This document shows, in pieces, positions 1-3,000 of a stretch of DNA of 64,000 bases (position 1 is the first letter of the stretch; each line of letters opens with the position of its first letter). A program made the position numbers. The stretch lies in assembly GCF_003918875.1 (NCBI RefSeq), contig NW_025766936.1, positions 620,001-684,000 on the forward strand. The letters are read 5' to 3'. This DNA comes from Haliotis rubra. Its lineage: Eukaryota.

Positions 1-3000
1 ACAGTGGTCAGTGGTGTATAAGGTGCACATTAGAGTGAAAGTACAATCACAAGGACAGTGTTATATATAACAGCTACAGTAACAGCATAAAGACAGTGAT
101 ATTCACCCAACAGACACAGTGGTCAGTGGTGTATAAGGTGCACATTAGAGTGGAAGTACAATCACAAGGACAGTGTTATATATAAGAGCTACAGTAACAG
201 CATAAAGACGGTGATATTCACCCAACAGACACAGTGGTCAGTGGTGTATAAGGTAAGTATATCCAGGGCAGAACAATAACTAGCGTCCTCCCTTGTATAG
301 TTCCTGAAACTTCCTGAGTAAACTTGATTCCAAGGCATCAAACTATAGTAACTTCTACACCCGTGCTTACTTTAGATAGCTATACATTCCTGACGAAAAA
401 GAGTTGTTGAAACAATGTTACAAGAAAGCGGACAAGAAAACATCATAATGCCTTTATTACAATTTCAAACAAATTAAAAGTAGATTAAGACAGTTTTCCT
501 TTAATATTTGAGTTCATATGAACAATGCTGGTTTCAGTTCATTCCCCATTTTACACCATTCCCAATTTTACTACTATGTCTATATATCATGTACACGGAA
601 AGTGTAAACAGTCCATCAGGCCACATTGTCTCCAAGATCATGCATGCAACGAACTGAGAAGTAGGCACCTTACATGATTGCAGTAATCCGTCTGACTAAA
701 GGCAGGCATGTCAGTTTTATAAAAGCGGACAAGTAAGGTCTTATCGATAATTTGAACATAAAGAAAACCAAATATGACATGTTGCAGACAATAGCTTAAA
801 ACGAATACAGAAATGTCCTTACTTTGTACTTCATTTGCTCGTAGAATTTCAGAAAGCTTTTACAGAATGGTATTGTTAATTATAAATTGAATTTTATCAA
901 AAATACAACAATTGCAAATTGTCATTGAGAATGTTATATGAACACAGACACATTCACAAGGAACAATATTTTGCTGGCTGAAATCAGCTGTTGCAGGCAA
1001 GGCGCAAGTCATTCAGCATTCCACCACACGGACTGTTTCCTTGTCTCCCTCTGAATGTTGTGAAAAATTCTCTATCACGTTTTTGACTTTAGGAATTATA
1101 TTAAAAACGCTTAATAATTTCCTATACAATTAAACCCTCATATATGAATCCAGACGTTTCAAAGAAGCATCAGGTAAAGAACTCATACTGAATATTTATA
1201 GAAACAATGCAATACAGTGACAATATTATTTAACAGTTCTTACATTTCCGCATAACAAACGGTATTTTATAGTTAACTTTCACACTTTGATGATATAGAA
1301 CATCCTTGTGTTGGGATAGTTTAACCTGTATCCTCGTAGGGTTCCATACCGACGTTCACTGAATGGAATGTTCATCCAGAAATTTGTTTTGGCCAAGATC
1401 ACTCATACAATGTACACATAACGACAATACAAAATGATTTTATAGAACTCTCGAGGTGTATTCAGGACGATCCGGTACAGTGGTTTCCATCACCACTACC
1501 AGTAAAGCACACACATTACTTTACACTGTGTATATTGTACAGCACTGATACTGTTTAGCCAACTTGACGATAAATTCAAATATGTCAACATCAGCGCCAC
1601 ATGGGATCCGTGATATTATTGATCAGTGCGCTGACGTTGTTAATTGCGCAGAGTACTAGTGTGGGCAAACATTTTGTTAAATGTATTTCACAATGTGTTT
1701 TATCATGTGGAGCTAAACCAAAGGTATAGAATGACGCACATGATCATTTCCATTATGCCATCAGGGTACCTGGTTATAAACTGTTATGGTGTAGCGGTAA
1801 GCAGTTTCACCGTATCACTCTGCACTGTCGTGATTCCTATTGGTGGATGCATATTTCTGTTGAAGTACAAGACAGAGAATGTATGTGCTGAGGCTGTTCA
1901 CAGAGCGAGGGGTGCGCCACCTCAATGTAGTGACATGTGGACTGTGTCTACTGTTGTTTCTGAAGGCGAGCAGAGGTCAGGACGATCACCATGTACTTCG
2001 ACTACACAATGACCTCATCAGAGACAACAACCCCAATGTCAGACCAGTCAAGAACAGTAGTGACTCTATCACGGTCTCTTTAGAATTTCACCTTCTCAGC
2101 ATGTCTAATTTTGATGAAGTTACTCAAACAGTGACAGCCAACGGGTTTTTCTTAGTTTCCTGGAAAGATGAGTTTCTAACCTGGAACGCCAGTGAGTATG
2201 GAGGAGTCAGTGCTATAAGTCCTGACTATGGGAAGGTTTGGAGACCTTACATCACTGTTCGCAACCGGGTGGATAGTTTTGAACCTCTGGGTCTCGATTT
2301 TGGGATCATGCAAGTTACCGCCCAAGGAATTGTAACATGGGCACCTGGCGATACCTTCAAGACTTTCTGCCAAATGGATGTTACCAACTTTCCTTTGGAT
2401 GAACAAGAGTGTACTTACGACACGTTCGTTTGGGGAAATATTCTGGAAGAAGTAGATTTAAAACCGACAAATAACTCTATTGACCTGACGTTATATAACT
2501 CGAACAGCCAATGGCATATCGCTAACTCATCTTCGCAAAGATATATTGTTCAGACCATTGGGTTTTCTTACGCAATGACATCCTTCAATATGACCCTAAA
2601 GAGAAAGCCATCTTTGGTGATTCTGACAACTCTCCTGCCTGTCCTGGTGCTGGGATTAGTGAATGTGGTGGTGTTCCTCATTCCTGTGGAGTCTGGAGAG
2701 AAGGTCTCCTTTGCCATCACGGTGTTGCTGTCTTTCACTGTTTCCCTGTCCTTCGTCACTGGACTGCTTCCACAGAATGCTGACTCGTTACCTATATTCA
2801 CTGTTTTCATTGTTGGCATGTTTGTGATGAGCTCTATCTACGTGTTCCTGGCCATCTGGATCGTGCAAGTGTTCCATCGAGACGCAGCCATCAAACCTGT
2901 TCCGTCGTGGATGGGACGTTTGACAAGGTCCTGGGAGAGAAGTATCTGTGGCACTCCTGTTGTTGGACGTAAGGAGAACCTGACATTGGCATCTTGCAAG

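What the first reader, a model, noticed from the sequence alone, without database searches (positions are those of the whole stretch)
2480..2600. Hypervariable loop C against near-invariant transmembrane domains
Loop C reads QRYIVQTIGFSY (copy 1), QKVVYHINDTPF (copy 2), QKVVFHITDTPF (copy 3), ERLVLENMGISF (copy 4) and TRHTKQVLYHEI (copy 5). Loop B flanks also vary (FVWGNILE, FEWGSDLK, LDWGYAQN, FVWADTIS). In contrast, the M1-M3 stretch FLIPVESGEKxSF...LLPQNADS is almost identical in copies 1-4. Divergence concentrated at the ligand pocket suggests diversifying selection for different ligands (inference).
Basis: partly seen in the sequence, partly recalled or inferred. Interest (0 to 1): 0.65.

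Follow-up and report, generated by a model that had tools for sequence, protein, structure and literature searches.

The report
Abalone nicotinic-like receptor array, variable pocket
Five neighbouring single-exon genes for nicotinic-receptor-like channel subunits in an abalone differ most at the loop that normally closes over the ligand, but this loop changes at about the neutral rate, so selection for new ligands is not shown.

Summary
The window carries five single-exon Cys-loop receptor genes; copy 3 is degenerate. Named relatives point to an abalone, probably Haliotis rubra.

Loop C is the most variable stretch:
- Paralogues differ at 13-15 of 19 residues there, against 74-97 of 361 elsewhere.
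- It gives the highest-entropy windows among 19 Haliotis relatives.

- Loop C omega is 0.84-1.04, with 95% limits 0.51-1.99. That exceeds its surroundings (0.24-0.31) but does not differ from 1.
- Site models do not significantly favour a positive class, and no listed loop C site exceeds posterior 0.05.
- The transmembrane core has ordinary constraint (omega 0.29 against 0.26 in the extracellular domain).
- The copies are recombination or gene-conversion mosaics. The loop segment is about 2.7 times deeper at neutral sites than M1-M3.

Positions homologous to the ligand pocket outside loop C also have raised omega (0.82 against 0.23).

My reading is old, paralogue-specific pockets on a shared cation-channel core. 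This is a new member of the known mollusc nAChR-like expansions.

The parts
1879..3120 (+). Copy 1: single-exon Cys-loop receptor gene, 413 aa
   Evidence: Open reading frame. Pfam PF02931 (E 3.9e-40) and PF02932 (E 6.1e-14). Best solved relative is human alpha7 nAChR, E 3.8e-47. Its H. asinina orthologue P0002 is 86% identical, with clade support 100/100.
2536..2571 (+). Copy 1 loop C core, QRYIVQTIGFSY (residues 220-231). The wider loop C, residues 217-235, is 2527-2583.
   Evidence: Coordinates. Placed against loop C of alpha7 and alpha6. No vicinal Cys pair is present.
2413..2454 (+). Copy 1 loop B region (residues 179-192), with the invariant Trp185
   Evidence: Trp185 is kept in 23 of 23 Haliotis rows. 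Flanking positions 184 and 187 rank 10th and 12th of 380 for entropy. Omega is 0.77.
2611..2877 (+). Copy 1 M1-M3 (residues 245-333), including the M2 pore helix at 2689-2772
   Evidence: Omega is 0.29 for M1-M3 and 0.12 for M2. Entropy is 0.32 and 0.14 bits.
10979..12235 (-). Copy 2: intact gene, 418 aa. Loop C core at 11543-11578.
   Evidence: It groups with copy 3 and H. asinina P0015 with support 100/99.
26814..28071 (-). Copy 3: probable pseudogene. Loop C core at 27379-27414. One extra G in the G run at 27014-27017 shifts the frame. The second Cys-loop cysteine is Ser, codon 27538-27540.
   Evidence: The tblastn match splits into two frames. The nucleotide alignment shows the extra G. 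It departs alone at 8 columns invariant in the other 22 Haliotis rows. Its 3' end is closest to copy 4 and its loop segment is closest to copy 2.
39371..40609 (-). Copy 4: intact gene, 412 aa. Loop C core at 39935-39970.
   Evidence: Its H. asinina orthologue is P0018, support 100/100.
42676..43908 (-). Copy 5: intact gene of a divergent sister subfamily, 410 aa, 45% identical to copy 1. Loop C core at 43249-43284.
   Evidence: Its H. asinina orthologue is P0020, support 95/85. Synonymous sites are saturated against copies 1-4.

Best explanation
The window holds a tandem array of single-exon genes for nicotinic-receptor-like channel subunits of the non-alpha type. They belong to a clade seen so far in abalones.

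Shown:
- The copies share a conserved pore and gating core.
- They differ mainly at loop C, at the residues beside the loop B tryptophan, and at loop D and E positions that line the orthosteric pocket in solved nicotinic receptors.
- Those positions evolve about 3.5 times faster at the protein level than the rest (omega about 0.9 against 0.26).
- They lie in the gene segment with the deepest synonymous divergence, while recombination or gene conversion shuffles the copies.
- Each loop C type already existed before the split of the window species and H. asinina.

Inferred:
- Each paralogue carries its own pocket or subunit-interface identity on a common cation-channel chassis.
- Homo- or heteropentamers would therefore respond to different ligands, probably not acetylcholine in the canonical way.
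- The pocket segment stays distinct either because conversion there is selected against or because its divergence blocks conversion.

Positive selection is not demonstrated.
For: Family and anatomy:
- 5 of 5 copies carry PF02931 plus PF02932.
- 4 of 5 have the C-x13-C Cys-loop.
- Human alpha7 is the best solved relative.
- No row of the 23 Haliotis sequences shows a CC pair in block 179-244 (my reading).
- The Tyr93 equivalent is Arg or Gln. The Trp149 equivalent is kept in 23 of 23 rows. The Trp55 equivalent is Phe in 19 of 19 rows and Tyr in 4 of 4.

The genes are under selection:
- Omega is 0.26 in extracellular residues 34-178 (test against 1, p = 1.3e-9) and 0.29 in M1-M3 (p = 3.7e-5).
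- IQ-TREE reproduces my whole-gene fit exactly: lnL -3199.826, omega 0.386, kappa 1.343.

The loop types are old:
- Orthologue pairs c1/P0002, c4/P0018, c5/P0020 and {c2,c3}/P0015 have support 95-100.
- In the loop segment 179-235 the nearest relative of c1 and c4 is the H. asinina orthologue, at 8 differences. The next protein is at 27 (c1) or 20 (c4) differences.
- There is no indel in 179-244 among 23 rows.

Mosaic history:
- Quartet-informative sites cluster by segment.
- Sawyer tests are significant.
- Segment trees conflict: (c2,c3) 99/99 in the loops, (c3,c4) 88/91 in the 3' part.
- The neutral tree of the loop segment is 2.72 times that of M1-M3 (p = 0.001).

Precedent:
- Mollusc nAChR genes are massively expanded, often intronless and in tandem arrays (PMC6896357; abstract and sections 8 and 9 read).
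- Octopus chemotactile receptors are nAChR-derived and have pocket residues reported under diversifying selection (PMC11526382 and bioRxiv 10.1101/2025.03.03.641191; passages read).
Against: - Omega about 0.9 is what an unconstrained loop would give. The cytoplasmic loop scores as high or higher.
- Loop C is also the faster part between orthologues, but only about twofold: 17 of 76 against 165 of 1434, Mantel-Haenszel odds ratio 2.25, p = 0.007.
- After allowing for the deeper history of the loop segment, the paralogue excess (odds ratio 9.07) is of similar size. So there is no clear burst after duplication, and orthologue similarity may only reflect short time. This last step is my inference.
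- The model-free check of the deeper loop segment is weaker than the likelihood test. Conserved codons with a synonymous difference are 14 of 30 against 21 of 70 (p = 0.12). Variable four-fold sites are 6 of 8 against 12 of 40 (p = 0.04).
- No ligand, expression or structural data exist here. No structure model could be made, so pocket positions rest on sequence alignment. The loop C tip is uncertain by two residues.
Confidence: 0.45

Rival explanations
1. One reading: recurrent positive (diversifying) selection drives loop C and the pocket to bind different ligands, as reported for octopus chemotactile receptors.
For: - Raised omega is specific to pocket-homologous positions on both faces of the interface.
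- The upper confidence limits reach 1.5-2.0.
- One fifteen-codon window, 221-235, has NG86 omega 1.16.
- M8a against M8 is borderline, p = 0.05.
- Loop length is strictly kept.
- There is a cephalopod precedent (PMC11526382, figure 4 legend; bioRxiv 10.1101/2025.03.03.641191, passages read).
Against: - No estimate is significantly above 1.
- M1a/M2a gives p = 0.19 and M7/M8 gives p = 0.062.
- The candidate sites 53, 130 and 31 lie outside loop C, and the listed loop C sites have posterior <= 0.05.
- Recombination, which is present here, is known to inflate such tests (established knowledge, recalled).
- Orthologue-level enrichment is only about twofold.
Confidence: 0.2
2. Relaxed constraint only. 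These subunits lack the alpha signature and their principal face no longer forms a working ligand site. Loop C and the old pocket positions therefore drift almost neutrally, while the fold and pore stay constrained.
For: - Loop C omega is 0.84-1.04 and cannot be told from 1.
- IQ-TREE on the 19 loop C codons alone returns 1.000.
- The same level is seen in the cytoplasmic loop.
- There is no CC pair, and the loop A tyrosine is lost.
- Loop C's relative rate is similar in the orthologue and paralogue phases once segment depth is allowed for (inference).
Against: - There is no indel in 66 residues across 23 sequences, although in-frame indels are expected in a free loop (rough inference).
- Positions 221 and 223 inside the loop stay conservative.
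- The central Trp185 and Phe/Tyr90 are invariant.
- Four of the five genes keep intact frames and have orthologues in H. asinina.
Confidence: 0.28
3. Gene-conversion artefact. The contrast arises only because the transmembrane part has been homogenised among copies, with no difference in selective constraint.
For: - The copies are mosaics.
- Pooled dS is 0.24 in M1-M3 against 0.50 in the extracellular domain.
- The loop segment is 2.72 times deeper than M1-M3.
- GC3 is higher in M1-M3 (0.55-0.65 in copies 1-4) than in the loops (0.39-0.45). That would fit GC-biased conversion.
Against: - With region-specific branch lengths, loop C omega is still 0.92 against 0.26-0.29 (p = 0.008).
- Within one segment sharing branch lengths, equality of omega is rejected at p = 1.4e-5.
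- M1-M3 does not differ significantly from extracellular residues 34-178 in neutral depth (scale 1.55, p = 0.07).
- Nor does it differ in synonymous variation at conserved codons: 21 of 70 against 36 of 109 (p = 0.74).
Confidence: 0.05

Closest known systems
Expanded, intron-poor, tandemly arrayed nAChR-like genes of molluscs (Jiao et al. 2019, PMC6896357)
   Same: - Single-exon genes in a tandem array.
- Alpha7-like by best match.
- Many members lack the alpha signature and the canonical binding residues.
- That paper suggests the diversity of the ligand-binding domain may serve diverse ligands (section 9 read).
   Different: - That study covers bivalves and other lophotrochozoans. My term search of its main text found 0 mentions of Haliotis, selection or gene conversion.
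- This array is a clade found here only in Haliotis. The nearest other hits are Gigantopelta proteins at 37-41% identity.
Cephalopod chemotactile receptors (CRs) and the wider 'CR-like' clade
   Same: - Derived from nAChRs.
- Reported as intronless.
- Lack the acetylcholine-binding signature.
- Pocket residues are reported as the fast-evolving part (PMC11526382; bioRxiv 10.1101/2025.03.03.641191; PMC13174522; passages read).
   Different: - Membership of the CR or CR-like clade was not tested, because no CR sequence was available to me.
- Octopus CR pocket sites are reported to pass a selection test. Here omega is about 1 and the tests are not significant.
- Ligands and expression are unknown for the abalone genes.
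Human alpha7 nicotinic receptor (closest solved structure, for example 9viq and 7koo)
   Same: - Same two-domain architecture, Cys-loop and loop B tryptophan.
- Same SGEK motif before M2, and a leucine at the position I recall as the 9' gate (sequence; position names recalled).
   Different: - No vicinal Cys pair.
- The loop A Tyr is Arg or Gln, and the first loop C Tyr is not conserved.
- The M3-M4 loop is very short, about 55 residues.
- The residue I recall as the 20' Glu is Gly.
Alpo4, an orphan nAChR-like receptor of Alvinella pompejana (PMC10338036; PDB 8bx5 appears)
   Same: A lophotrochozoan nAChR-like subunit without the CC tip of loop C. It is an orphan despite ligand screening (passages read).
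   Different: Alpo4 keeps the aromatic box (F103, W159, Y199, Y205, W65 according to the paper). The abalone copies keep only part of it.

Membership tests
Cys-loop pentameric ligand-gated ion channel superfamily | Extracellular ligand-binding domain followed by the transmembrane domain | tested here: met
   PF02931 (E 5.5e-37 to 2.3e-43) and PF02932 (E 9.3e-11 to 7.7e-18) in 5 of 5 copies, all above the curated cut-offs.
Cys-loop pentameric ligand-gated ion channel superfamily | Two cysteines 13 residues apart (the Cys-loop) | tested here: met
   C-x13-C is present in 4 of 5 copies. Copy 3 has Ser at the second cysteine.
Nicotinic receptor branch (cation-selective) | Closest relatives are nAChR subunits; a Glu just before M2 (GEK), recalled as the cation-selectivity determinant | tested here: met
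   The top PDB hits are alpha7, alpha6 and muscle alpha subunits. ESGEK precedes M2 in 5 of 5 copies. The functional meaning of the motif is recalled, not tested.
Alpha-type (agonist-binding) nAChR subunit | Vicinal Cys-Cys at the tip of loop C | tested here: not met
   No CC pair in block 179-244 in any of the 5 copies or any of the 23 Haliotis rows (my reading). The profile alignment treats the alpha6 CC as a two-residue insertion.
Alpha-type (agonist-binding) nAChR subunit | Full aromatic box (alpha7 Tyr93, Trp149, Tyr188, Tyr195, plus Trp55 on the complementary face; numbering recalled) | tested here: not met
   Equivalents in copies 1-5, in order: Tyr93 is R, R, R, R, Q. Trp149 is W in all five. 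Tyr188 is V, Y, F, L, K. Tyr195 is Y, F, F, F, I. Trp55 is F, F, F, F, Y. The tip alignment is uncertain by two residues.
Mollusc intronless tandem nAChR expansion (Jiao et al. 2019) | Intron-poor coding region and tandem arrangement in a mollusc genome | tested here: met
   Five uninterrupted coding regions lie within 42 kb. tblastn finds no further fragments. Named relatives are all Haliotis. Untranslated-region introns cannot be excluded without RNA data.
Cephalopod chemotactile receptors / CR-like clade | Phylogenetic placement within the CR or CR-like clade | not tested
The only cephalopod hit is an Octopus vulgaris alpha10-like protein at 29% identity.
Cephalopod chemotactile receptors / CR-like clade | Gating by hydrophobic, non-cholinergic ligands; expression in sensory epithelium | not testable with these tools
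   Needs electrophysiology and expression data.
Genes under diversifying (positive) selection at the binding site | Omega significantly above 1 at binding-site codons | tested here: not met
   Loop C omega is 0.84-1.04, and the tests against 1 give p = 0.51-0.96. M1a/M2a p = 0.19 and M7/M8 p = 0.062. The listed loop C sites have posterior <= 0.05. Power is low with 3-5 sequences.

The most novel reading that the evidence does not exclude
Abalones have an nAChR-derived array of orphan channels that may act as chemosensors. It would have arisen independently of, or as a deep sister to, the cephalopod chemotactile receptors. Its evolution would be modular: recombination keeps a common pore and gating chassis, while the segment coding loops B, F and C is kept out of conversion and holds a private ligand pocket for each paralogue. 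A few pocket sites would be under positive selection that three to five sequences cannot detect.
Probability: 0.22. Interest if true: 0.6.

Novelty: new member of a known kind. Interest (0 to 1): 0.35.

Why it matters
If the paralogue-specific pockets are functional, this array offers a compact natural experiment. Near-identical pores carry four different pockets, which suits loop-swap pharmacology. It would also show whether the route from neurotransmitter receptor to chemoreceptor, known from octopus, was taken in gastropods too.

As it stands the finding is mainly a cautionary case. A striking contrast between a variable loop and a constant core does not by itself show positive selection. 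Here it splits into roughly threefold weaker constraint and roughly two- to threefold deeper history of the loop segment in a recombining gene array.

Tried and rejected
- **Structure prediction.** The second try came after the twenty other calls the tool asked for. So there is no model, no fold search and no mapping onto a pentamer. Pocket positions rest on alignments to alpha7 and alpha6.
- **Binding prediction.** No complex-prediction job was sent, because no binding claim depends on it.
- **Copy 5 for dN/dS.** Its synonymous sites are saturated (pS 0.78-0.82). It was used only in the five-taxon loop-segment fit and in IQ-TREE partitions.
- **Single-tree site models on all copies.** Rejected because the copies are mosaics. 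I used the three-taxon star tree (c1, c2, c4) with five segments that each have their own branch lengths. Copy 3 was left out as a probable pseudogene, and copy 5 as saturated.
- **IQ-TREE on loop C alone.** The returned omega of 1.000 on 19 codons may be a start value that did not move. I give it little weight.
- **"Orthologue conservation proves constraint".** I considered this and dropped it. Loop C differs at 17 of 76 positions between orthologues, against 165 of 1434 elsewhere. That fits the same relative rate as between paralogues once segment depth is allowed for.
- **Misalignment.** Rejected, because there are no gaps in 179-244.
- **Overlapping gene on the other strand.** One search lists no other frame of 150 aa or more at 2480-2600.
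- **RNA genes.** Rfam and tRNA scans of the window found nothing.
- **Literature.** Searches listed no paper on selection in abalone nAChR-like genes among those shown. van Giesen et al. 2020 is not held. Allard et al. 2023 was seen only as cited by others.
- **Not seen.** The supplementary figures of PMC6896357 (binding-site alignments) were not opened and may bear on how common such loops are. No eukaryotic DNA collection was available, so orthologue coding DNA could not be fetched.
- **Script errors of my own.** Searches failed and were rerun.
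Full report
**What is there**

The window is eukaryotic DNA without any N. It holds five uninterrupted reading frames of 392-418 codons:
- c1 at 1879-3120 (+)
- c2 at 10979-12235 (-)
- c3 at 26893-28071 (-), extended below to 26814
- c4 at 39371-40609 (-)
- c5 at 42676-43908 (-)

All five carry the neurotransmitter-gated channel ligand-binding domain and transmembrane domain. A tblastn search with the five proteins finds no further copy or fragment.

The best solved relative is the human alpha7 nicotinic receptor (E 3.8e-47). A family profile also puts alpha6 and alpha7 first.

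Among 62 database relatives with E <= 1e-20, the closest named ones are all from abalones. These are Haliotis asinina (86% to c1), H. rufescens, H. cracherodii and H. rubra. The H. rubra paralogues sit on a contig of the same length as the window's own proteins. I therefore take the source to be an abalone, probably H. rubra. It is not human. The genes are single-exon, so no spliced model had to be joined.

Similarity between the copies stops at the coding region. The exceptions are about 350 bases upstream for c2/c3 and about 80 bases downstream for c3/c4. Satellites and Tc1/mariner remnants fill the spacers.

**Copy 3 is degenerate**

- It has one extra G in a G run at 27014-27017. Behind it the M4 helix and the stop codon continue in another frame down to 26814.
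- The second Cys-loop cysteine is serine.
- It departs alone at 8 columns that are invariant in the other 22 Haliotis sequences. Among them are a proline in M1 and two M2 residues. The same count is 1-3 for c1, c2 and c4.
- A relative-rate test leans the same way: 37 unique changes against 23, p = 0.07.
- A homopolymer read error cannot be excluded for the frameshift alone.

**The observation**

The span 2480-2600 is residues 201-241 of c1, and the 12-residue loop C is 2536-2571.

The contrast is far beyond chance:
- Between c1, c2 and c4, loop C (residues 217-235) differs at 13-15 of 19 positions. The rest of the mature protein differs at 74-97 of 361. Odds ratios are 7.6-12, p <= 5e-5.
- M1-M3 differs at 10-15 of 89 positions.
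- In 19 Haliotis proteins of this type, the ten most variable twelve-residue windows out of 402 all start at 218-227. Loop C is more variable than the signal peptide or the cytoplasmic loop.
- The eight highest dN windows of 366 all fall in 217-238.
- There is no gap in residues 179-244 in 23 sequences.

c2 and c3 share almost the same loop, so there are four loop types in the window.

**Is it the pocket?**

I mapped the alpha7 pocket residues through the alignment. Their numbering is recalled from my knowledge of the family.
- None of the 23 Haliotis sequences has the vicinal cysteines of alpha subunits (my reading).
- The loop A tyrosine is Arg or Gln.
- The loop B tryptophan is invariant in 23 of 23 rows.
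- The loop D tryptophan is Phe (19 of 19) or Tyr (4 of 4).
- The 16 mapped positions have mean entropy 1.52 bits, against 0.63 for the extracellular domain (p = 5e-5).
- The 10 positions outside loop C are still raised (p = 0.0012).

The tip of loop C is uncertain by two residues between the pairwise and the profile alignments. No structure model could be made.

**Selection tests**

Only the window's own DNA was available.

Gene-wide pairwise omega among c1-c4 is 0.29-0.53. c5 is saturated at synonymous sites.

Because the copies are mosaics, I used c1, c2 and c4 on the only possible three-taxon tree, with separate branch lengths per region. The model was GY94 with F3x4 codon frequencies, in my own code. 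It gives the same likelihood, omega and kappa as IQ-TREE on the whole gene.

| Region | Omega |
|---|---|
| Extracellular residues 34-178 | 0.26 |
| Loop F | 0.17 |
| M2 | 0.12 |
| M1-M3 | 0.29 |
| Cytoplasmic loop | 0.43 |
| M4 | 0.57 |
| Loop B | 0.77 |
| Loop C | 0.92 |

Further fits:
- With branch lengths shared inside segment 179-244, loop C has omega 0.93 (limits 0.51-1.51) against 0.26 for the rest. Equality is rejected (p = 1.4e-5) and omega = 1 is not (p = 0.81).
- All five copies under three alternative trees give 0.84-1.02.
- The 16 pocket positions give 0.92 against 0.26. The 10 outside loop C give 0.82 against 0.23.
- Site models give M1a/M2a p = 0.19, M7/M8 p = 0.062 and M8a/M8 p = 0.05. 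The positive class is 1.4-1.8% of sites, led by residues 53, 130 and 31. The loop C sites among the 25 listed have posterior <= 0.05.
- In the window scan, 14 of 366 windows have omega above 1. Thirteen are in the cytoplasmic loop and one (221-235, omega 1.16) is in loop C.

So loop C evolves at about the neutral rate on average. This is much faster than its surroundings, but not faster than neutral.

**Recombination and gene conversion**

- Quartet-informative sites cluster by segment. The pattern c1c4|c2c3 fills codons 180-237. The pattern c1c2|c3c4 fills 356-413 and 76-113. The pattern c1c3|c2c4 fills 46-52 and 147-179.
- Sawyer-type permutation tests are significant: p = 0.006 on 88 silent sites and p = 0.0002 on 384 polymorphic sites.
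- Segment trees conflict. c3 groups with c2 in the loops (99/99) and with c4 in the 3' part (88/91).
- The neutral-scaled tree of the loop B-F-C segment is 2.72 times that of M1-M3 (p = 0.001) and 1.79 times that of residues 34-178 (p = 0.038). M1-M3 against 34-178 gives 1.55 (p = 0.07).
- A model-free check agrees in direction but is weaker. Conserved codons with a synonymous difference are 14 of 30 in the loops, 21 of 70 in M1-M3 and 36 of 109 in 34-178. Variable four-fold sites are 6 of 8 against 12 of 40 (p = 0.04).

The transmembrane core is therefore not specially homogenised. Rather, the loop segment is the oldest part of a mosaic.

By my arithmetic, the roughly ninefold excess of replacement change in loop C over M1-M3 splits in two. 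About threefold comes from weaker constraint and about threefold from deeper history.

**Age of the loop types**

A protein tree of 25 sequences pairs c1, c4, c5 and {c2,c3} each with an H. asinina protein, with support 95-100. In the loop segment the orthologue is by far the nearest relative.

Across the four orthologue pairs, loop C differs at 17 of 76 positions, against 165 of 1434 elsewhere (odds ratio 2.25, p = 0.007).

So the loop types are older than that species split. Loop C keeps evolving about twice as fast as the rest. This does not show strong present constraint, and I found no clear sign of a burst after duplication.

**Reading**

Shown:
- A recombining tandem array of nAChR-like, non-alpha subunits.
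- A conserved pore, with ESGEK before M2 in 5 of 5 copies.
- Divergence focused on pocket-homologous positions at about the neutral rate.

Inferred:
- Paralogue-specific ligand or interface identity on a shared cation-channel core.
- Ligands other than acetylcholine in its canonical binding mode.

The rivals are true diversifying selection at a few sites, and plain loss of constraint in a vestigial pocket. The present data cannot separate them. A pure gene-conversion artefact is largely excluded.

**Relation to what is known**

- Massive, intron-poor, tandem nAChR expansions in molluscs, with diverse ligand-binding domains, are described. My term search of that paper's main text found no mention of selection or Haliotis (PMC6896357; abstract and sections 8 and 9 read).
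- Cephalopod chemotactile receptors are the known case of nAChR-derived chemoreceptors whose pocket sites are reported under diversifying selection (PMC11526382, passages and figure 4 legend; bioRxiv 10.1101/2025.03.03.641191, passages).
- A 2026 preprint reports a CR-like clade reaching gastropods, and divergent clades with substituted binding residues (PMC13174522, passages).
- Searches listed no study of selection in abalone nAChR-like genes among the papers shown.

This is a new member of a known kind.

Noticed in passing
window 14213-20939: A 6.7-kb satellite of a 44-bp unit (152.8 copies, 94% matches). It produces spurious open frames of up to 2321 codons in several phases and a strong GC and AT skew.
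   Followed up: partly
window 1-254; 29940-30837; 33050-35256; 41185-41847; 54305-55592; 57435-58375; 60833-62574: Seven further tandem-repeat arrays, with units of 115, 42, 55, 26, 55, 59 and 62-124 bp, lie between and beyond the receptor genes. Two of them account for the repetitive frames at 29890-30477 and 41382-41918.
   Followed up: partly
window 7775-8515 (-) and 49413-49898 (-): Remnants of Tc1/mariner-type transposases. The first matches HTH_Tnp_Tc3_2 (E 3.8e-9) and the second matches the DDE_3 endonuclease domain (E 4.1e-7).
   Followed up: partly
window 26814-28071 (-), copy 3: A probable young pseudogene. It has a one-base frame break in a G run and has lost a Cys-loop cysteine. 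It is a mosaic: the loop segment is closest to copy 2, while the last 80 codons are closest to copy 4 (6 differences, against 14 to H. asinina P0018).
   Followed up: yes
M1-M3 of all five copies (for example 2611-2877 in c1 and 42943-43209 in c5): GC3 is higher in M1-M3 than in the loop segment: 0.55-0.65 in copies 1-4 and 0.83 in copy 5, against 0.39-0.45 and 0.68. Either codon preference or GC-biased conversion could cause this. I did not resolve it.
   Followed up: partly
c1 residues 355-381 (window about 2941-3021), the cytoplasmic M3-M4 loop: This region holds 13 of the 14 fifteen-codon windows with NG86 omega above 1 (up to 1.6). It also holds the only indels among copies 1-4, so the alignment there is less certain.
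   Followed up: no
c1 residues 53 and 130 (window 2035-2037 and 2266-2268): These are the only sites with posterior 0.79-0.94 for the positive class in M2a and M8 (N/R/L and R/V/Q in c1/c2/c4). Both lie outside the mapped pocket, in segments with low synonymous divergence.
   Followed up: no
proteins P0005-P0008: At least four more paralogues named H. rubra come from a contig of the same length as the one that holds the window's proteins. The array therefore probably extends beyond the window to nine or more genes.
   Followed up: partly
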